DNA of 63,795 bases, filler included, from Kipferlia bialata (GCA_003568945.1; 6 parts of 6 records of this genome joined end to end with filler, not necessarily neighbours in it), one strand, 5' to 3'. Positions 27,009 through 41,726 are shown, numbered from the whole stretch's first letter. Notes: a model not told the origin generated them from the letters alone. Made by a program: numbers and translations.

Positions 27009-30000
27009 TGGGGACTGGATGGCAGTGTCAAGTATAGCATACAACACATACAGATACACATACACACACATAACCACATATGTGTGTCATAGTATGACTC
27101 ATACTGTTGCAAGAGAGATAGGCCTAGTAGCGCGCATACATATATGTGTGTCATTACTTGTCACTTCTAAATACATATATTCTTTCTAGTGGATCCATGT
27201 TACACCTAGGGGTGTGCGTTGTCCTGTACCACCTGGAGACAGATGTGCATATACACTTCTACATACATTATCAGTATTCATTAGGTCTACACCTATATAT
27301 TACTATACATTAATACCCAGGGTTGCCGTTGTGGTGTACCACTTAGAGACAGATACACACATATATATGTAGAATGCACATGTATGTATTAGTATAGTCA
27401 CACACATATATTTGCAGACATATTATTCACTAATACTCAGAGGTGTCGTTGTCCTGTATCACCTGGACACTGCTGCAGTGACAGGCACTTATAGAGTATA
27501 TATTGTGTATAGTACATATAGTACATCATACACTAATGCTCAAAGGTGCCGTTGTGCTGTACCATCAAGAGACAGATGCAGAGACAGGCACATACAGTAT
27601 ATATATAGTATATATAGTGACAGTACCTATATTGTATTGTATCCTTACCCCTAGGGGTGCTGTGGTCCTGTACCACCTGGACACTGATGCAGAGACAGAC
27701 CCATACATATATATAGTATGTATTGTATATATAGAATAGTACTATATACTGATACCCAGGGGTGCTGTTGTCCTGTACCACCTGGACACTGATGCAGAGA
27801 CAGGCACCTATATGTATATATATGAATATATATATGAATATATATAGTGAATAATACACTAACGCCTAGGGGTGCTGTGGTCCTGTACCACCTAGGCACT
27901 GATGCAGAGACAGACATTTATAGAGTATATATAGTATGTATTGTATATATAGTGCACTATATACTAATACCTAGGGGTGCCGTTGTGTTGTACCACCTAG
28001 AGACTGATATAGAGACAGGCACATACATATAGTATGTATAGTGACAGTACATATATTATTGTATTTTATCCTTACCCCTAGGGGTACCGTTGTGCTGTAC
28101 CACCTAGAGACTGATGCAGAGACAGACACTAACCAATGGGTGGAGCACACAGTGATAGAGCCAAGTGCTGACACACCAGGTGTATATACACATTAGTATA
28201 TACTATGTATATATTCTATGTCTATATGTATATTCTATGTATAGCTAGACCAAGGGGTGGGTGGAGCACACAGTGCTAGAGCCTAGTGCCGATACACCAG
28301 GTGGATATACACATTAGTTTATACTATGTGTAGCTAGACCAACCATATTGGCTGCAGTATAGTTCTATCCTTATATTTATACTAATATATCCAAATGAGT
28401 GGGTGGAGCACACAGTGTTGGAGCCAAGTCCCGATACCCCAGGTGTATATACTGTTTATAGTTATAGTGTTGGCTACAGTATAGTTCTATCCTTATATAC
28501 TTACGCTATATACCCTAATGAGTGGGTGGAGCACACAGTACTAGTGCCCAGTCCTGACACACCAGGTATACATTGATAAGACATATATAGTATGTGTATA
28601 CCATACACCTAAGTGCATTTGTGTACTGACTCCAGGCACCTATGGGAGTCTGATGTTTGGTACCTCTCTCTCCCTGACAGGGACATCCATAGCAATAGGG
28701 GCTAACCAGGAGGTATATATATAGACATGTGTATGTTTGGAGAGAGTGCTCTTAGTGTACTTCTTCTAGTAAGGTTTCGTTTGGAGTTGTTGTTTGTGAG
28801 CAACTTTAGAAATAGGTCCGGGATTACTATTCACAAGTTGAGATATCTTATCTTGTGTACGTTAGTATAATAATTGTGTTAAATCCACCGCCTCCCCCAC
28901 AGGTTGTCAATGGACGTCTCTGGGCTGGGGCGGTGTATGTGTACACACTGACAGAGGGTGAGTGAGGGGGTATTCTTGGGTCTTTCAACGTTGTACTTCT
29001 AGCCCTATTGTACTCTATTCTACTCTCCTTCAATCATGTTCTGAAGAAGTGAATATCCATCCCCTGCCCCTCACCACAGATGGTGTGTGGACACAGGAGG
29101 GACACATACCTATGCCACTGGACATTGTGCAGGTATAAGTATGTATATATATGTATACAATTATGTGTATATATGTATATATTAACTCAATGACACATAC
29201 CCATCCCAGTGGACATTGTGCAGGTATAAGTGTCCATTTGTATGTATATATATATGTGTGTAGATATATTTGTGTACAGATCATTTAATGACACATACCT
29301 ATGCACTGTATACATTGCTGACATAGTTGCTAAATTGTATTTGTTCCAAAACACAATTGTGCTTCCACTCATATATTGTCTAGACCCTCACTGCAGGACT
29401 ACGAGGAGGACTTTGGCTACTCGGTTGCCCTGGGCCCCGACTTCCTAGTCACATCCAGCACCCACAGTGTGTATGTGGCAGAGAGATCAGGTTAGTATAT
29501 GACACAAGAATACATGTGAATGTATGGATGTATATATACCTTTGTATGTATGTTGCAATAGTACTCACACCAGCTGAGGGTGTGTTGGGCACAGCTGCCA
29601 AGGTTGAGTATATGAGGAGTATACAGTGCTATGTCTCATAACAACAGATATATGTAAATACTATATGTGTATATATATTTGCATCGTGGACTTACACCAG
29701 CTGAGGGTGTGTGGGGTGAAGCTGTCAAGGTTGAGTCTCCTGATGGTGTGTTAATGTCCTCAGCCACTCTGGTATACGGACAAGGGACAGTGGGTATAGG
29801 AGCATTGGCCTCAAGTGTGACAGTGGAGGTATAAATGGTACATATATATGCATATTCATATATATATATATATATGGTACACATAAGGTGTCAGTGTCAT
29901 CTTCCGCTCGAGCATTGGCTCCAAGTGTGACAGTGGAGGTATGCCACAAAGAGAGCCTGTGAACACAACTTTACCCGAATACTGAAGGCAATACTTGCAT

Positions 30001-33000
30001 CCTTACCCCTCAGGGTGAGGTCTTAACCATATATAGTTGCATACATATATATATGAATAGACATTATTATATGCTAATGTATCTATGTATAGGTTGAGGT
30101 GGTCATACGCACTGACCCTCAAGGCGACCCTAACTAGGGCTGGTCTTGTCCTTCGTATGACACCTCCATCTATATATAAATACATACATATATGTATATA
30201 TGAATATACATTACTATATGCGAATGTATGTATGTATATAGGTTGAGGTGGTCATACCAACTGACCCTTAGGGTGAGGTCTTAACCAGAGCTGGCCTTGT
30301 CCTACTGTATGACACCTCCGTCCCTTTACACATATAGATGGACACTATATATATGTTTATATCTGAATAGACATTGTCCTCTCTGCTTAGTATAGGTTAT
30401 GGTCATACTAACTCTACAGGGAGAGACGCTCACCAGGGCTGGTCTTGTCCTACTGTATGACACCTCCATCCCCCTGTGGTACACTAGTACAGACACAGCT
30501 GCTGGGACAGGGTTATACCAGGCATGTATGGCACAAAGAATCCGTATAACTCAGACACACATGTATATAGACTAAACCTACGTACATACATTACTCCAGG
30601 TCCTCCAGTCCCCCTCCCCCCAGAGGGATGGGATGTATATCTATATCTATCTATATACCTATCACTGTGTCTGATCATGTATATTAGTGTACGTAACTCA
30701 CCCTCAGGTCCTCCAGTCCCCCTCTCCCCAGAGGGACGGGCTGTTCGGGGGTGCTCTCTCCTTTGACGTGACATCATTTGTCACAGATGGAGTGACGGTG
30801 GAGGTATGTATATGTACTTGCACATAGATAAGGTCATGTTTCTATCTGACTGTAGGCCCAGTTGCTAGTGAGTGAGTCTGCAACTGATGAAATATTTAGT
30901 ATTATATATATAGATACATGTATATAGTAAGGTAGTGGCAGTATCTAACATCCAGGCCCAGTTGCTAGTGAGTGAGTCCGGTGCCAATGTCCTGTTGGCA
31001 GAGGGGGCAGGGGTGGCACATTTGTATAGGTATAATATATACATACTTGTATATATATATACTATGCTATTAATGTATATATATGTATGTATATGCTGGT
31101 GCCGATGTCTTGTTGGCAGAGGGGGCTGGCGTTGCCCACCTTTACAGGTATGTATATTCTCTATATATATTCTCTATTGGTTTGACGTCTAGTCGATTCA
31201 GCGTCTCAGCGTCTCAACGTCTCAACGTCTCAGCGTCTCATACCCAGGTGCAGTGATGCTGGCACTGTGTATCCCATGACTCTGTTCCAGACTGTTGTAC
31301 AGACACCCAAGAGCAGTGAGACATTTGGATACAGGGTGGCTGTCAGGTAGATATATGTTGCTAGGAGTGTCTAGACTACAGACTGTAGTGTGTGTGGTAT
31401 AATCTTATGTATAGACTTATCACTAGCGGAGAGAGGATGGCCATCGGTAATGGGGGTGGTCCAGTGGTGGCTGTCTCTCTCTCTCTCTCTGTCTCTCTCT
31501 CCCCCTAAGTATGTACATACAACACTAATCAATAGGGGTGAGAGGATGGCCATCGTTTGTTGGGCTTACCCACATTCACTAGTTCTACCTGTATGTCTCT
31601 ATATATCTATCCATCTATAGGATATGTGTAATATCCAGTGGAGAGAGGATGGTCATCATTGTATTTCTCTCTCTCTCTCTCCCCCCCTAAGTATGTATAT
31701 ATAATTCTTATCAATAGGGGTGAGAGGATGGCCGTCGTTAGCGGGGGCGGAGCAGGAGGGGTGACTGTACTGGACTACTCAACGGTGGCAGGTACGTATA
31801 TAGCTGTATATATTTATATATGTATTCATATATATATAGAGATAGATACATATATACTAGTGTATACCATCTGACTGCACTGGACTACTCAACGGTGGCA
31901 GGTATATTTTTAATACATGTACAAATATATACTATTACTATGTATATATTTAATATACTATCTGACGGTGCTGGACCACTCAACGGTGGCAGGTACGTGT
32001 ATATATATACTAACAGTAGCAGGGTTGCATACTCCCGCACAGTGTGTTTATATACCTAAAACACTGTACACCCATTATATAGGCCTGTATGTCCCCGCTG
32101 CCCCAGTGCCAGCTGGATGTATACCTACGTCTGTGATCTAAATATATATATATATATATCCAATATATATATATACGTATAACCACAGGCCTGTATGTCC
32201 CGTCTGCCCCTGTCCTTGAGAGTGGGTTCAACGGAGAGAGCAGGAACTTTGGACAGTCCATCGCACTCTGTGATGACGGTATCACTGGTACAGGTACTAT
32301 ATATGAATGGGTGTATGTATACCTTCCAGTAGAGTGTGTCTCTATCACCTTACTACCAGGCCCCACTCTCTATGTGGGCAGTGCCCTAGATGGGATATTG
32401 GTATATATACTTATATATATTTACGTGTATGTACATATATAGTAGTCTAAGTATTTATACTATCTCATATCCAGCTACCACTGTCTACGTGGGCAGTGCC
32501 TCCCTAGATGGGACAGGGGGGGTATATGGGGTCATGGTGAGGTAGGGTATATGTATGTATAAGTGTATATACGTATGTAGATATGTTGTTGGGGAGAGAA
32601 TGAGAGAGATAGGATGGATGGGGACAGGGGGTGTGTATGTGATCATAGTCAGGTATGGTGCACTAACACTGAAGTGGGTGGGAGAGAGGGAGACTGGGTA
32701 TATGGGTTGTGGGGTGGTGCGATTTGGCATGTGTAAAGATTTATTAATTAGTATTAGTATTAGTATAATTAATGTACTCTGTACTGGTATGATATTAACA
32801 CCAGGTCCATTTACGCCAACTGCTGGATGCCAATGGCGGACCAGATGCCCACATGCGGTGCAGCAATGGGAAACATCAGGTATACATAGTATTTATACAC
32901 TTATAGTGCATAGTACATATTTATAGAGAGAGAGACAGAAAGGGAGAGAGAGAGGGAGAGAGTGATGCCCACATGCGGTGCAGCAAGGGGAAACATCAGG

Positions 33001-36000
33001 TATACCTTATATGTACTAAATATACATTTTATGTAACGACAGAGAGAGAGAGAGGGAGAGAGGGAGTGTAATGATTGATCAGATTCCCCCATGCAGCACA
33101 ACATTGGGAATTGTTTGAAATGCTTTTGTATACATGTATATACTAGTATATGATATATATATAATCCACATATGAATCTCTAACCCTCAGAGTTTATGAC
33201 GTCGAGACAGGGAATGTCTGCACAGACGACCTGTCAGCTGGTATGTTCATATATACAATCATATATATATATATATTCAAGTATTCACATACATAACAGC
33301 TAGAGAGGCAGAGAGACGGCCAGCCAGCTGGTATGTACACGTATACATATTTGTGTATGTGTATCTATGTATATTCAGTAGTGTAATATATGGTGTATGT
33401 ATATACACTCTTACTATTAGGCCTCTCTGCCTATTGGCAGACCCCCGAGGGATACTGTGTATATGTATATATNNNNNNNNNNNNNNNNNNNNNNNNNNNN
33501 NNNNNNNNNNNNNNNNNNNNNNNNNNNNNNNNNNNNNNNNNNNNNNNNNNNNNNNNNNNNNNNNNNNNNNCTATATGTATGATCTTACCCATAGGCCTCT
33601 CTGCCTATTGGCAGACCCCCGAGGGTGAAGACGTCCAACCACCCCAGCCGATGACTGTTAGGGATCCAGTCAACTTCCCAGGTATGTCATGAACATACTA
33701 GGCATACACACATATATCTATTATGTACATACTATATATACAATGTGTTATAGTTCATGTAACCAGCCCATGACGGTCAGAGATCCCGTCAACCACCCAG
33801 GTATGTGTGCTTATACTCTGTATACGATAGTATAGTAAATATAATTGTAGTACAATACACATGTGTGTATATATATTCTATCTCACTTCAGGCGAGTACC
33901 TCATAGACCTGACTGGCCCACCTGGCCATGTATTCTATATTTACACAGTATACATAAGTATATATAGTATATATATATTCATAGTATGTGTATTTGAACT
34001 TTCCCCAGGCGAATACCTCATAGACCTCACTGGCCCCCCTGCCCCTGGGTTACACACTCTCAGGGTGTGCTACAACGGTATGTGTATACAGACAGATATG
34101 TGTGTGTGTGTGTGTGTGTGTGTGTATACAGACAGATATGTGTATACTACTCATTCTAATGGTATATATATATATATACATATGGTACAATACATGCATC
34201 CACCCCCAGGTGTCACCATCACCTCAGGAAGTGCCCTCACACTATTAATATGTATATTATGTATATATATGTATATATATGTATATATATGTATATATAT
34301 ATATACTGTGTATATCTCCTCTAGTAGTGCCCCCAGTGTACAGACTATATATATACACATATATACATACTATGTATAAGTATATATATTCAATCGAACT
34401 TACGCAGGTGTCACCCTCACCTCTGGCAGTGCCCCCACACCATATATATATATATATATATACATACTGGGTATAAGTATATATATTCCAACTTACGCAG
34501 GGTGTCACCATCACCTCCGGCAGTGCCCCCACAATATATATATATATATGTATTTGTGTGTGTATCTACGTATGTATATGTGTAATGCTGCTATCATGCT
34601 TCAAGTCACCCATATCAGGTGTCACCATCACCTCTGGCAGTGCCCCCAGTGTACAGACTGTAGACCCCACTCTATCAACCATACACGGCACATGTACCAA
34701 GGATGAGCCACTACCCATATCCATATCCATACTAGACAGCTGTGGTGGGAGCATCACGGGTCTAACTGTCACTGCTACAGTAACAAATGCATCTGGTACC
34801 GTTGTGTACACTGGAGACGTGACAGAGGTTGTGGGTACCCCAGGGGTGTATGAGACTGTTACTGATAGCCTACCCGAGGGTGTGTACACTGTAAGTGCCT
34901 TAGCCGGAGGAGTCGTTGTTACTGGCACTCTCTATGTGTGTGCCTTCACTGTATCTGAGGGAGGTGTGGACTTCCACATTAGTGTGGAGTCATATGTACT
35001 GATAGACTCTGTCTCTGCCACTGCTGGTGTGCCACACTACGTGGGTCTAGCCCTCTATGACGTAGAGGGTAGTGCTGTTACAGCACTGGTTGATGTGTCA
35101 ATAAGGGACACTGGGACTGGGGCTGTGTACCCATTGACTATTAGTGGTAGTACCTACACAGGTAATATCATTGTATTGCTAGAGGCTACTATATATATAT
35201 GTGTGTGTGTATGTATGGTTATGTGGTGTATTTACTCCAGGTGTTATGGTGTATTTACTCCAGGTGTTGTGGTGCTAGAGGATATATAGTATATATGTAT
35301 ATAGCATATAGTATTTATGTATATGTTTTGTATTTACTCCAGGTGATGTGGTACTAGAGGATATATATTATATATGTATATAGCATATACTATATATGTA
35401 TATGTAGTGTATTCACTCCAGGTGATGTGGTGCTAGAGGCAGGCCAGGCATCCTTGATGGTGGTGGTGGGGGGGGAGTCATTCTTCATATTCAAGGTGGG
35501 ATGATTTTCAGCGGCTATGTTGCAATGTATATTTAGTAATAGTATATATCCGTCAAGGTTCGGTGCTACTGCACTATATATATAGTGTCTATGGATATAT
35601 ATACATTCTTGAATCCTTCTTCATATTCAAGGTATGTATATATATATCTATGCGTCTAACTGTATAGAGTTACTGTATTACGTATATATGGATGTATCTA
35701 TGTATTGCTATTTCGCCAGTGTCTCTCTTCATATTCAATGTTGGATATATGGTATATATCATATAGTAATAGTGATATTAATAGAGATATACGTCAATGT
35801 GTGATGATTTGTTCCTGTAGTATGTCAATGGTATATATATATGTACATACATATACAGTGTTTATTCTTCCTGTCTTTGTGGTCAGAGGATAACGTACTC
35901 TCACAGGTGTATATTGGCTTCACGTTTTCTCTAACCCTAGATTGATGTGGATGAGCCCTTCCCTGCTGAGCCTGTGTCCAAGGTGTGTGTGCATGCATAC

Positions 36001-36384
36001 ATACTTATACTACATACAGAATAACATGTCTCATGTCTGCTGTATATATGCATCCCAAATCATTAGTTGTAGCTCACTGTGTACACACGTGTATTTTATA
36101 TGCATTGTCTGAGCCATCGTATATTACTTGTAACCACCAAATACCAGTGCGCATAGGTTGGACCCTCTTTGTTCTTGCCTCTGTATTCATCTTTATATAC
36201 ATATTTGATATATTATTACCATACACATTATATAATATATAATATATACACTCTAATCACCCAGGTGCCTATGGTAGTGGGATGGACCCTCTTTGTCCTA
36301 GCCTCTGTCTTCATCGGTGTCAGGGAGGGCATGCGGTGCAAGTACAAGGACCATGTCAGACTTGACATGGGTGCTACCGCGTAG
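26401..36384 (+). CDS. Type I membrane surface protein: signal peptide, FG-GAP (integrin-alpha-like) beta-propeller, Ig/filamin-like domains, C-terminal TM helix
   Basis: MLLSLAVLATVLSLCYG signal peptide; repeats MFGTSLSL..IAIGA..AGAVYVY, DFGYSVAL, LFGGALSF, TFGYRVAV, NFGQSIAL..YVGS; Thr/Val-rich beta region 34619-35161; TM VVGWTLFVLASVFIGV then REGMRCKYKDHVRLDMGATA*. Confidence 0.8.
27200..28570 (+). repeat. Exon-echo tandem array: 8 acceptor-side and 3 donor-side partial copies around the real exon ~28082-28179
   Basis: ~110-bp period copies of [..CCYAG + GGTGCYGTKGTSCTGTACCACCTRGASACWGATGCAGAGACAG] upstream, and of [GGGTGGAGCACACAGT..ACMCCAG + GT] downstream. Confidence 0.9.
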
Positions 36385-37213
36385 AATATGAGTAGTAGTA
36401 ATAGAGAGGGAGAGAGAGAGTGAGGGGAGGGAGGGTATGAGGTGCAAGTACAAGGACCATGTCAGACTGGAGATGGGGGCAACCGCGTAGAATATGAATG
36501 AAAAGACATATAACATTTTTACATCATAGTTCCTTATGTTTTGTTAGAATGTCTTTGACAGGTATGCATCTGGTAAGGTGCAAGTACAATGACCATGTGA
36601 GACTGGACATGGGGGCAACAGCATAGATAATTGATACATATAGTAATAGTAACAATATTTGAGAGACAGAGAGAGAGCGAGAATGTAAGTACAATGGCCT
36701 TATGATATGGCCCACATCAGTCTGTATATGGGGGCAACAGCATATACACACGCCTTGTATGCAAAATAATGAGTGAGAGAGATTCAGTTGCGCCAAAGAT
36801 CATGCTAGACTGGCAAATTTGAATGAAACACATTTCTGGACAGATTCCATTCCATTTGGGTTCTTTAGCAACTTGTCCAAGGGCTAACTGTGGCAGAATA
36901 GTGTATATTGCTTCGTGAAGAAATACTCTGCTTGATTGGAAGGACTATGCAGGAATATTGAGAGACAGCGGGAGGGTTTCAACAAATTATTGAAATAGAG
37001 TTTCTATATTTTGAGATGTACTACATTGGGCAAATGTACTCAACAAAGAACACATAGAAAGTTTCAATTTGAAACCTTTCAGCGGCTTTCTCTCTTGGTG
37101 CTCCCTCGCATATTCCCTCTATTGAGCACTCCCTACCACACTTACTACTTACTATCTTACACAGAGAGGGGTGTCACTCAGTACGTATTGCCTATACGTG
37201 CCTGGTTTAGGCA

Positions 37214-39066: not shown

Positions 39067-39114
<48 letters not shown>

Positions 39115-39167
39115 GTCTCTATGGCTTAGAGTACTTCTATAAAACCTCCGCCCACTGCATACTCTCG

Positions 39168-39198
<31 letters not shown>

Positions 39199-39204
39199 AT
39201 CTCC

Positions 39205-40598
39205 CTAAAGTACCTCACCCCACTGCATACTGTCATCTGGGTACACCATGCCCTGTGGCAAGGTAAGAGAGACACAGTCACCTCTGGAGAGTGGCAGAAG
39301 CCTTGAGTTAGGGTGAATATATACATATTTGTGTGTGGTACAAATATAGTGATTATACGATAATTGTCCTCTCCTACCACAGTATCCTTCACTCCCTCTC
39401 TTTGGTACTATATGCATACAATAGTATATGAATATATGCATACACTAGTATATACATATATACCTGTCCTCTCCCACCACTGATACCCGTTCTGCCTCCC
39501 TTAGAAAGGGGCCACTAGAAGCTTAAGATAAGAGGCTAGAGAGAGAGAGAGAGAGAACATTGTCAGAAAGGGGCCACTAGTAGCTTGAAATAAGGGGCTA
39601 GAGAGAGAGGGAGAGAACACATGACACATTGTCATAGAGGGGCCACTTGTTGCTGAGATGGGTATATAACCATATACTACATACAAAATTCCATATACTA
39701 TAAACTACATATATATATCCATACAGAGTGTCATAGTATAGTGTATTCATATGCATATACATAACTGTCTCAGAATGATACCCATGTATACATATTAGTG
39801 TAACCAGATACCTCTTGCGTCAAGTGACTCTTTCATCATACAGATTTCTCTTTCATCATACAGATTTCTCTTTCATCATACAGATTTCTTGTTATGACAT
39901 GTGTAAGTATCTATGCGTATATAACAAGTCTGTGCATATAGCACCTCTTGTGTCAAGTGCACACCAGTCCAGATACTCTCATCATCCATAGTATTAGCTA
40001 ATTGCGTAATTAATGTATATAATACATATTATTGATTCATCGTTAGTGTCTATAATACCTCTTGTGTCAAGTGCACCCCAGTCCAGGTACTGGCCAGTGA
40101 TGGTGTCACATATATAAATATATTCACTGACTCTTATATATAACTCGTTATACTACTCTCTCACTTCATACTATAGTTCTATAATGGAGTTACTCCATTG
40201 GAGTATACAGTAACTACATTCATTGATACCCACCCTTTGTACTTAGTGCACCCCAGTCCAGGTACTGGCCAGTGATGGTGTCATATATATATATACACAA
40301 ATATACATATANNNNNNNNNNNNNNNNNNNNNNNNNNNNNNNNNNNNNNNNNNNNNNNNNNNNNNNNNNNNNNNNNNNNNNNNNNNNNNNNNNNNNNNNN
40401 NNNNATTCAGTGCACCCCACTCCAGGTACTGGCCAGTGATGGTGTCATATATATATATAGTCAAGTATACTATATATAGTGTACTACTGTATATATTCAT
40501 AGAGTACCCTTTCTATTCAGTCTACCCCAGTCCAGGTACTGGCCAGTGATGGTGTCATAGGCTAGGACCTAGGTGTTATGGAGAATGTACACATATAT

Positions 40599-40634
<36 letters not shown>

Positions 40635-41726
40635 GCCAGTGATGGTGTCATAGGCTAGGACCTAGGTGTTATGTATGTGAATGTATATATGTAGAGAGAC
40701 AGAGAGCGAGAGACTGGCCCGAGATGGTGTCCTAGGCCAGGAACTAGGGGTAAAATACAGTGCATGTACTCTATATATGTTGTCTAGATCATGCACTCTA
40801 TACACTAAAAGAGTGCGAGTGACACTCGCTAGCCAGTGTTGTATGACGTACCATTTCGTCTGTCAGAGGGTGCAGCGGCACAAACACTGTCATTCTATCT
40901 CTCTCTCTCTATATATATATGTATACTATATCCTATACATGTAAACATACACATACCGTGTCGTCTGTCAGAGGGTGCAGCGGCACAAACACGACGTACT
41001 GTCCGTTGACCTAGGGGTGACACAACAACATACTACGGCTAGTAAGAGAGAGAGAGAGAACACACTGTGGGATTGGCGAGTAGAAAGAATATCATACACC
41101 TTATACTTACGTCATTAATTCAGAAGGAAATAGTGAGGGACTATAGAGAGAGACAGAGGGATATATCTGATGGGAATCCTTACCACTGTAGCTGATCTCA
41201 GCACTGATAGCTTGTGCTCCCTGGGAGGCTTGGCCTCAACACTCCACACACCCACTATGTCTCTCTCTCCCTCTCTCTCTACACCCTCACTCACCACACC
41301 GTCAATGTCTATATCCTCTCTCTCCTTTCTCCTCCCTCTCCTCAGGCGCAGTGTATGGTGGGATGTTGTCATGAAGACATGCAGTGTGTCGTTTACCACC
41401 ACTGCTTTGCATGTGGGAGCTCTATATGTGAGTAGGAGGCTAAATATACATATGTATATGTATATACATATATAATATGTATATAGTATGTATATAATAT
41501 GTATACATATATAGTATATGGGATGTTGTCATGAAGACATGCTGGGTATCGTTTACTACCACTGTCTTGCATGTAGGAGACCTATGCTAAGATGTACATA
41601 CACAAGAAGTGAATGTGAATGCTGATGTAGAGAGGGAGGTATATGAGAAGTTGCATTGTGAATGAATAATACACCCACATATATACACATTGATGTGTTA
41701 CCTAAACTGTGCAGGTGTCTCTCCTA

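What the first reader, a model, noticed from the sequence alone, without database searches (positions are those of the whole stretch)
39805..40750. Echo series ordered like a stratigraphic record of exon-end states
Seen on the minus strand: the real exon ends YLDWGRLNRK; successive donor echoes read YLEWGALN, YLDWGALSTK, YLDWGALDTR, YLDWCALDTR, then LDAR. Each resembles its neighbour more than the exon, and they shorten with distance. Inference: polarised addition next to the exon, with older states pushed into the intron.
Basis: partly seen in the sequence, partly recalled or inferred. Interest (0 to 1): 0.7.

Follow-up and report, generated by a model that had tools for sequence, protein, structure and literature searches.

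The report
Introns built from old exon ends
In the free-living protist Kipferlia bialata, most introns examined here hold short copies of the neighbouring exon's end that differ from the working exon mainly at silent positions, so the introns likely keep a rough, oldest-farthest record of working exon versions that were likely displaced by recombination between diverged alleles.

Summary
The series is real. A spliced contig uses the first copy (…RLNRK) as the exon. A double-depth DNA contig adds a hidden intermediate (…ALNTK), probably in the N gap. Rank tracks divergence (rho 0.77, P 0.011). The organism is Kipferlia bialata. The pattern is general: 148 echoes at 96 of 174 exon ends, in 60 of 77 gap-free introns, about 59% of intron bases, donor-side unit about 115 nt. 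Polarity is a trend, not a rule: 26 v 12 pairs, 14 ties; monotone in 3 of 9 long series. Unexpectedly, exon and first echo differ like two working alleles: dN/dS 0.22, against 0.42-0.51 simulated for a dead copy; no stops; conservative replacements. This gene alone is not significant. Donor-side spacers do not resemble their own intron. Best reading (0.45): about 110-nt duplications beside the exon that join ends from diverged alleles and push the older end inward. No outgroup exists for this exon; two paralog sites elsewhere fit. The scan noted similar echoes in sea urchin, explained there by ordinary decay.

The parts
40508..40568 (-). working exon (VLAYDTITGQYLDWGRLNRK) of a multi-exon gene that looks kelch-like (family label recalled; no Pfam hit in the 3 exons scanned)
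   Evidence: spliced on both sides in contig 8 of run X2; frame open through the chain
39522..40507 (-). 986-nt intron (includes 93 N) that holds the whole donor-side echo series
   Evidence: joint; GT..AG ends
40405..40449 (-). donor echo 1 (YLEWGALN, cut by the gap)
40312..40404 (.). assembly gap, inferred to hide about two near-identical units reading ...YLDWGALNTK with a spacer like the exon's own
   Evidence: 130-nt contig at depth 876 v about 430 single copy, 9 other letters; read out; placement is inference
40234..40285 (-). donor echo 2 (YLDWGALSTK, then GT)
40059..40108 (-). donor echo 3 (YLDWGALDTR, then GT); first 34 nt identical to the exon, 8 differences all in the last 16 nt
   Evidence: P 2.4e-5 for the clustering
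39945..39977 (-). donor echo 4 (YLDWCALDTR, then GT)
39812..39826 (-). donor echo 5 (LDAR, then GT); shares a left junction with echo 4 and follows a 20-nt x3 tandem (39828-39889)
   Evidence: found by eye and motif, below the aligner's threshold
40634..40673 (-). acceptor echo 1 of the same exon (12 intron nt plus 28 exon nt, identical)
40713..40751 (-). acceptor echo 2, distal, 5 exonic differences
40957..41010 (-). upstream exon; its own donor echo lies at 40846-40887
39464..39521 (-). downstream exon, with an acceptor echo near 39594 and a donor echo near 39402
39200..45310 (-). host gene K, 13 exons modelled, 24 echoes; 8 exons seen directly in the spliced contig
13261..25800 (+). gene A, 37 hand-built exons, 55 echoes, strongest silent-site bias (0-fold/4-fold 0.12)
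   Evidence: not checked against RNA or annotation; 3 phase breaks
26398..36390 (+). gene B = KIPB_004654, 23 exons, 49 echoes, including an 8-echo acceptor array and echoes of the stop-codon region
   Evidence: 23 of 23 exon translations found in the public protein
47396..50900 (+). gene C, 10 exons, 17 echoes
45928..46617 (-). gene D, 4 exons, 3 echoes

Best explanation
The echoes are partial copies of exon ends inside introns, and they are likely former working exon ends pushed inward when a roughly 110-nt duplication beside the exon put the exon end of another, likely diverged, allele in their place. SHOWN: a donor-side unit is a TA-rich spacer of 51-119 nt plus about 38 nt of exon end with its GT; mirror units lie upstream of acceptors and after stop codons; the outermost sites are the ones spliced; exon and echo differ mostly at silent or conservative positions. 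INFERRED, step 1: on one chromosome only one copy can be the exon, so two copies that both look selected were most likely both exons, on different chromosomes. INFERRED, step 2: exons of about 75 nt are the only homology between alleles whose introns have diverged. A broken end invades the other allele in the exon, copies through the exon end into foreign intron, and rejoins its own chromosome upstream in the exon, either by microhomology or through an existing echo (unequal exchange). The product is new exon end, foreign intron stub, old exon end, old intron. An exact in-place duplication followed by exon-only exchange with other alleles gives the same result. INFERRED, step 3: only events that leave the reading frame whole survive, so the scars collect at coding/non-coding borders. 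Repeats add units mostly next to the exon, while echo-to-echo duplication, deletion and exchange blur the order. The record is therefore of population alleles in rough age order, not a strict ladder of one lineage.
For: First-echo dN/dS 0.22 (bootstrap 0.16-0.29, 96 series). Donor-side first echoes 0.17 against simulated dead-copy means of 0.42-0.51 (range 0.26-0.76 over 80 runs through the same aligner). 0-fold 121/2135 v 4-fold 134/622, ratio 0.26, P 2e-7 against 0.5; 0.25-0.30 at four thresholds; 0.35 without gene A, P 0.009. Wrong frames give 1.45 and 1.86. 115 replacements have mean BLOSUM62 -0.04 v -0.85 +/- 0.15 neutral, with 0 stops v 4.5 expected. Middle echoes have their own 4-fold excess, as allele sampling predicts. 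Intron after a donor echo matches the exon's intron start no better than background beyond +12 (0.33 v 0.29-0.30), and donor spacers are no closer to their own downstream intron than to others (mean percentile 0.52, 45 spacers). Donor-side differences crowd the splice half (100 v 63, P 0.005), as a crossover inside the core predicts. A paralog pair in the window has one exon with 3 third-position differences beside dissimilar intron starts and other exons far apart, so exon-sized exchange seems to occur. Metamonads lack NHEJ; fornicates lack Rad51A and have two Dmc1 (PMC8516963, section read); Dmc1 residues stabilise mismatched heteroduplex (PMC6719624, abstract).
Against: No second allele was seen: run X1 shows no other letters in exons of gene K at 90% likeness apart from the hidden unit, and one Kipferlia sequence each came back for gene B and RPL32. 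The needed diversity (about 0.15-0.2 at 4-fold sites) and outcrossing are unmeasured. Gene K alone does not reject ordinary decay (0.40, P 0.21); the acceptor side only just does (0.36, P 0.044). Acceptor spacers do resemble their own intron (percentile 0.67, P 0.0004), show no splice-side clustering (48 v 62), and 13 of 48 consecutive spacer pairs align, so in-place duplication also happens. Donor spacers are more TA-alternating than echo-free intron starts (0.76 v 0.56) and slightly hairpin-rich, which fits new filler synthesis as well. The tight unit length is unexplained. Three of five gene models are hand-built only.
Confidence: 0.45

Rival explanations
1. Single-lineage stratigraphy. Each event re-synthesises the exon end with many errors and adds new TA-rich filler. 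Selection keeps only events with silent or conservative errors. The old end is frozen in the intron.
For: Explains the silent bias without alleles; unalignable, TA-alternating, slightly self-complementary donor spacers; excess of adjacent differences, 61 v 39; low transition share at 4-fold sites, 54 of 134; age trend; 2 of 2 paralog sites.
Against: Needs roughly 10-20% error per base in the copied exon (my estimate). Predicts few private changes in middle echoes and no 4-fold excess there, but they hold 41 v the exon's 35, with excess P 0.014. Ladder conflicts in 14 of 23 quartet sites. No local inverted template found for spacers.
Confidence: 0.25
2. Ordinary in-place tandem duplication across the splice site (slippage or flap mis-joining), then neutral decay of the dead copy. 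The silent bias comes only from selection on the exon, and spacers are scrambled by microsatellite slippage.
For: Known process: yeast rad27 insertions up to 100 bp between direct repeats (PMC5677150, passages). Alignable units exist. Gene K alone and echo-echo pairs (0.40, P 0.08) do not reject it. An earlier scan note reached this reading for sea urchin.
Against: Simulated through the same pipeline it gives dN/dS 0.42-0.51 and about 1% stop codons; observed 0.17 and 0 of 607. Base and CpG composition predicts 76 third-position differences, 153 if doubled, against 193 seen. Replacements are conservative. Cores with no differences sit beside unrelated intron starts.
Confidence: 0.12
3. Echoes are themselves under purifying selection as spare exon ends, because deletion between exon and echo promotes the echo's end into the exon.
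For: Predicts a silent bias in echo-private changes, few stops, GT kept in 56 of 63 and AG in 63 of 69, and weaker bias with rank (0.22, 0.30, 0.33).
Against: Selection would be only deletion rate times cost; if that were effective, the echoes and the microsatellite-laden introns should be purged (inference). Only 7 of 23 gaps in echo cores keep frame.
Confidence: 0.1
4. The new exon end comes from a close paralog in the same genome rather than an allele.
For: The paralog pair in the first scaffold shows exon-sized likeness, and one echo carries the paralog's base.
Against: No paralog of gene B's largest exon at E up to 0.1 (a search the tool calls weak for absence); none for two exons of gene K; echoes occur in all five genes modelled.
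Confidence: 0.06
5. Assembly artefact: haplotypes or paralogs stitched in tandem.
For: Short-read draft with gaps inside arrays; unit length is near common read lengths.
Against: Logan contigs of 242-2764 nt span echoes and spacers with 0 other letters at uniform depth 404-474 (the run may be the source of the assembly). The spliced contig skips the echoes. Copies differ in a codon-patterned way.
Confidence: 0.02

Closest known systems
Human F7 intron 7 37-bp VNTR spanning the exon 7-intron 7 border (PMC1557585; abstract and outline read)
   Same: First element straddles the border; downstream pseudo-donors stay silent; the most upstream donor is used.
   Different: One locus of 37-bp repeats with identical pseudo-sites. 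Here 96 of 174 exon ends, on both sides and at stop codons, units about 100-115 nt, donor spacers mostly unalike, cores diverged like alleles.
Intron gain by tandem genomic duplication (PMC3265369, abstract; PMC4974935, search listing only)
   Same: A local duplication that contains splice signals is hidden by splicing.
   Different: There the duplication makes a new intron from exon sequence. Here it lengthens an existing intron by about 100 nt per unit, and echo ends are not acceptor-like.
rad27/FEN1-type insertions of up to 100 bp between short direct repeats in yeast (PMC5677150, passages read)
   Same: Similar size; junctions often sit in short dinucleotide matches (by eye).
   Different: Those are exact in-place copies and give no codon pattern and no foreign spacer.
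Tandem exon duplication and mutually exclusive exons (recalled)
   Same: Exon-derived copies in the neighbouring intron that look coding-constrained.
   Different: Echoes lack one of the two splice sites, and none appears in the spliced contig.
Polarised arrays such as CRISPR spacer arrays or one-sided minisatellite mutation (recalled analogy)
   Same: Tendency for newest units at one end.
   Different: No dedicated machinery known; order holds only statistically.

Membership tests
Splice-border minisatellite (F7 IVS7 type) | Head-to-tail copies whose first element spans the exon-intron border | tested here: met
Splice-border minisatellite (F7 IVS7 type) | Pseudo-sites stay intact but only the outermost site is used | tested here: met
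   GT kept in 56 of 63 and AG in 63 of 69; echo site scores at or above the true site in 27 of 63 donors and 25 of 69 acceptors; outermost sites used in gene K contig and gene B annotation. Minor use of echo sites cannot be seen in contigs.
Splice-border minisatellite (F7 IVS7 type) | Whole unit, intron part included, is a copy of its neighbour | tested here: not met
   Donor side: 11 of 63 intron starts above background, mean percentile 0.52. Partly met on the acceptor side (0.67) and in 13 of 48 spacer pairs.
Splice-border minisatellite (F7 IVS7 type) | Dead copies decay neutrally (my expectation for such repeats) | tested here: not met
   gene K alone inconclusive
Intron gain by tandem genomic duplication | Donor of the first copy pairs with an acceptor in the second copy, making a new intron | tested here: not met
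   Spliced contig skips all echoes to the next exon; echo ends score -4.7 as acceptors v 8.8 for true acceptors
Mutually exclusive duplicated exons | Copy has both acceptor and donor and is used in mRNA | tested here: not met
   Focal echoes start 9 or more nt inside the exon with no acceptor; X2 depth 0 over 39678-40381 is no proof of absence
Recursive splice sites | Echo end kept or improved as branch plus AG-GT | tested here: not met
   AG at end: exon 49, echo 47 of 63; acceptor score unchanged, P 0.39; AG-ending exons not enriched (37/47 v 26/35)
Introner or mobile-element insertion with target-site duplication | Inserted sequence is a dispersed family of similar copies | tested here: not met
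   No dispersed spacer family in the window beyond CT tracts; whole genome not available
Polarised (one-end) array | Divergence from the active end rises with rank | tested here: inconclusive
   Trend significant (26 v 12; 17 v 6) but monotone in 3 of 9 long series
Polarised (one-end) array | Distal copies match outgroup states | tested here: inconclusive
   No homologue for the focal exon; 2 of 2 sites in another gene pair fit, one of them in a distal echo of a series
Inter-allelic recombination scar | Echo states exist as working alleles in other isolates; high silent diversity | not testable with these tools
   Only two runs of one sample were listed

The most novel reading that the evidence does not exclude
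Most intron DNA in Kipferlia bialata is scar tissue of mismatch-tolerant, Dmc1-based recombination between highly diverged alleles. Exon ends are rewritten again and again, and each displaced working allele is archived in the intron in rough time order. One genome then holds a time series of past alleles at on the order of 100,000 exon ends, and a natural test of how a reduced spliceosome picks the outermost of many near-equal splice sites.
Probability: 0.3. Interest if true: 0.9.

Novelty: new variant of a known kind. Interest (0 to 1): 0.72.

Why it matters
(1) It offers a concrete answer to what the long introns of this intron-rich fornicate are made of: length rises about 100 nt per echo over a base near 130 nt (rho 0.83, 77 introns). 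(2) Dead copies that differ from exons like working alleles cannot come from plain duplication and decay. They point to hidden outcrossing among very diverged lineages or to an unusual error-prone repair route, in a group that lacks NHEJ and Rad51A. Either is testable with one more isolate. (3) Echo splice sites often score as well as the true ones yet are skipped, which gives a genome-wide natural experiment on exon definition and scanning. (4) If the age trend holds genome-wide, echoes give ancestral states in a lineage with no close sequenced relatives. Not found in print in nine searches of the held library (those naming Kipferlia are 8, 61, 78). The genome paper has no occurrence of 'duplicat' in its main text. 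Subscription journals and supplements were not searched.

Tried and rejected
Whole genome: none held, so all statistics rest on five gene models in this window. Homologues for the outgroup test: none for exon 41184-41420 among 91 candidates; one unrelated repeat protein for exon 41908-42024 in 1.84 billion representatives; no usable Atlas hit; Pfam matched 1 of 11 queries, RPL32 only; 0 of 4 long ORFs are in the collection exactly. Gene B's largest exon returned only the public protein of this gene. No listed run is on record as RNA; X2 is RNA by the tool's guess, though its contig joins exons at GT-AG borders. Lack of X2 cover over the echoes is not used as evidence. Reads could be laid only on 39150-44400, so genes A-D have no RNA check. 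Rejected: recursive splicing; local inverted templating of spacers (percentiles 0.46-0.54); the raw self-inverted signal, which is inflated by symmetry and shrinks to percentile 0.58 against trinucleotide shuffles; CpG or base composition as the cause of the third-position excess; AT-ward direction at 4-fold sites (47 v 42); frozen middle echoes; shortening with rank as a general rule (28 v 17, 7 ties, P 0.07). Rows left out: terminal exons and series with N were dropped from spacer and stub counts (63 of 73 donor echoes; 45-46 of 51 donor series; 33-38 of 45 acceptor series); introns with N were dropped (77 of 82 kept); echo 5 and the hidden unit are not in the 148; echo-bearing genes at 1-9100 and 54000-63795 were not modelled.

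Full report
Setting. The window is several scaffolds joined by N spacers; the finding lies in 39067-51971. An RPL32 exon is 100% identical to Kipferlia bialata L32e, and a long exon is 100% identical to KIPB_004654. The genome paper for the species reports 51 Mb and 124,912 GU-AG introns; its main text has no occurrence of 'duplicat' (PMC5874029, passages and section 12). No whole genome was held.

The observation. Contig 8 of run X2 (963 nt, RNA by guess) lies in eight pieces with 0 other letters and joins 41008-40957, 40568-40508 and 39521-39463, so the RLNRK copy is the exon. DNA contigs cover echoes 3-5 at depth 431-474 with 0 other letters. A 130-nt contig at depth 876 differs at 9 letters and reads ALNTK, with 5 substitutions and up to 2 gaps in the 60-nt spacer. 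I place it in the 93-N gap because the flanks are single-copy; this is inference. Differences in the last 15 nt from the exon are 2, 4, 7, 7, 8 along the series; rho 0.77, P 0.011. The series has two blocks, {exon, hidden, echo 2} and {echoes 3-5}. All 8 exon/echo-3 differences fall in the last 16 of 50 nt (P 2.4e-5). Echoes 4 and 5 share a left junction, so some copies came from other echoes.

How general. I built five gene models by hand (87 exons). Phases chain without break in B, C, D and K, with 3 breaks in A. All 23 exon translations of B occur in the public protein; one exon end was 27 nt short. A frame-blind aligner found 148 echoes in 96 series (51 donor, 45 acceptor), against 1 hit in 487 non-adjacent controls. 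Of 77 gap-free introns 60 hold an echo, 59% of intron bases lie in units, and length is about 133 + 100 per echo. Period is 115 nt on the donor side (IQR 105-125, n 70) and 102 on the acceptor side (82-114, n 74). Echoes also follow stop codons.

Order. The distal neighbour is more diverged in 26 of 52 pairs, less in 12, tied in 14 (P 0.017); shorter in 28, longer in 17 (P 0.07). Without the focal series and with one pair per series: 17 v 6, 10 ties. Private 0-fold changes are 9, 17 and 38 of 641 for exon, echo 1 and echo 2; 38 v 17 gives P 0.003, and P 0.05 after allowing 9 for the exon lineage. Against a strict ladder: 3 of 9 long series are monotone and two run backward; 14 of 23 quartet sites conflict. 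In a paralog pair outside my models, an echo carries the paralog's base where its exon differs, and the most distal of three acceptor echoes alone carries the paralog's first base. That is 2 of 2 sites, too few to weigh much.

The surprise. If an echo is dead from birth, it gathers changes at all codon positions while the exon gathers silent ones, so dN/dS cannot fall much below 0.5. Simulation through the same aligner gave means of 0.42-0.51 and about 1% stop codons (4 settings of 20 runs). Observed for donor-side first echoes: 0.17 and 0 stops in 607 codons. Fitting needed an exon-type branch of about 0.3 and an echo branch of 0.04 or less. All first echoes give 0.22 (0.16-0.29); wrong frames give 1.45 and 1.86. 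0-fold/4-fold is 0.26 (P 2e-7 against 0.5), stable at four thresholds, and 60 of 82 informative series lie beyond the 2-fold line. By gene: A 0.12, B 0.35 (P 0.045), K 0.40 (P 0.21); without A 0.35 (P 0.009). Replacements are conservative. Composition does not explain it. Echo-echo pairs give 0.40 (P 0.08 against 0.5).

Spacers. After a donor echo the intron matches the exon's intron start above background only to about +12. Donor spacers are no closer to their own downstream intron than to others (0.52); acceptor spacers are (0.67). Donor spacers are 51-119 nt, with purine-pyrimidine alternation of 0.77 against 0.62 after the last echo and 0.56 in echo-free intron starts. So a donor unit is usually not a plain copy of exon end plus old intron start.

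Mechanism. Two copies that both look selected were most simply both exons, on different chromosomes. With 75-nt exons as the only homology between diverged alleles, strand invasion in an exon, synthesis into foreign intron and rejoining upstream would leave new end, foreign stub, old end, old intron. Unequal exchange through an existing echo does the same and explains shared junctions and the donor-side clustering (100 v 63). Metamonads lack Ku and DNA-PKcs, keep mismatch repair, and fornicates have two Dmc1 and no Rad51A (PMC8516963, section 8 and passages). Dmc1 residues stabilise mismatched joints (PMC6719624, abstract). These steps are inferred. No second allele was seen in this sample, so the donors would be past mating partners. 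I give this 0.45, error-prone single-lineage rewriting 0.25, plain decay 0.12, selection on echoes 0.10, paralog donors 0.06 and artefact 0.02.

Splicing. Echo donors keep GT in 56 of 63 and echo acceptors AG in 63 of 69. They score lower on average but equal or beat the true site in 27 of 63 and 25 of 69 cases. The outermost sites are used where checked, as in the F7 VNTR (PMC1557585, abstract). Recursive splicing finds no support.

Verdict. The stratigraphic reading is right as a tendency and probably records population alleles. Border-spanning duplications are a known kind; their density here and the allele-like divergence were not found in the searches named. New variant of a known kind, interest 0.72. 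Other papers: PMC6679479 passages, PMC3265369 abstract and outline, PMC5677150 passages, PMC4974935 search listing. No supplements were read.

Noticed in passing
window 1-1160 (+) and about 7190-9000 (-): Inverted paralog pair: one exon differs at only 3 third positions in about 52 nt beside dissimilar intron starts, a last exon aligns at 75%, and the middle exon is far apart by eye; suggests exon-sized homogenisation.
   Followed up: partly
window 36322-36700 and 50860-51040: Echoes of the last codons and stop codon lie in the 3' flank, with no splice site; differences are again mostly at third positions.
   Followed up: partly
window 27200-28130: Eight acceptor echoes with alternating states (period 105 and 215), pointing to two-unit duplication inside the array.
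   Followed up: partly
window 15668-16687: A 922-N gap sits between an exon end and a 98% identical echo; it may hide a collapsed young array.
   Followed up: no
window 30521-30522: GC donor in gene B; my exon ending there matches the public protein.
   Followed up: partly
window 23043-23346: Exon and two echoes keep I-D-I-S-x-L-S-P, with Ser changed across codon families or by a compensated 2-nt shift.
   Followed up: no
window 26280-26440: An echo upstream of gene B's first modelled exon reads as an alternative signal-peptide-like start (by eye).
   Followed up: no
all modelled introns: After removing echo units, 16 of 60 remainders are shorter (20-71 nt) than the shortest echo-free intron (73 nt); (AG)n runs occur in 9 of 45 donor spacers v 2 remainders.
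   Followed up: partly
window 45928-46617 (-): Short gene whose EEDRAALFAMPAVRREEILYQR motif recalls Rtf1 (recalled, untested); it may join gene K across the homopolymer stretch near 45650.
   Followed up: no
window 1318-2255, 5708-6811: Intron-poor ORFs sharing a DTLGWREV motif, likely a lineage-specific repeated family; no Pfam hit for the two tested.
   Followed up: no
window 53130-53662: RPL32 gene with short introns and no echo in the repeat scan; highly expressed genes may be echo-free.
   Followed up: no
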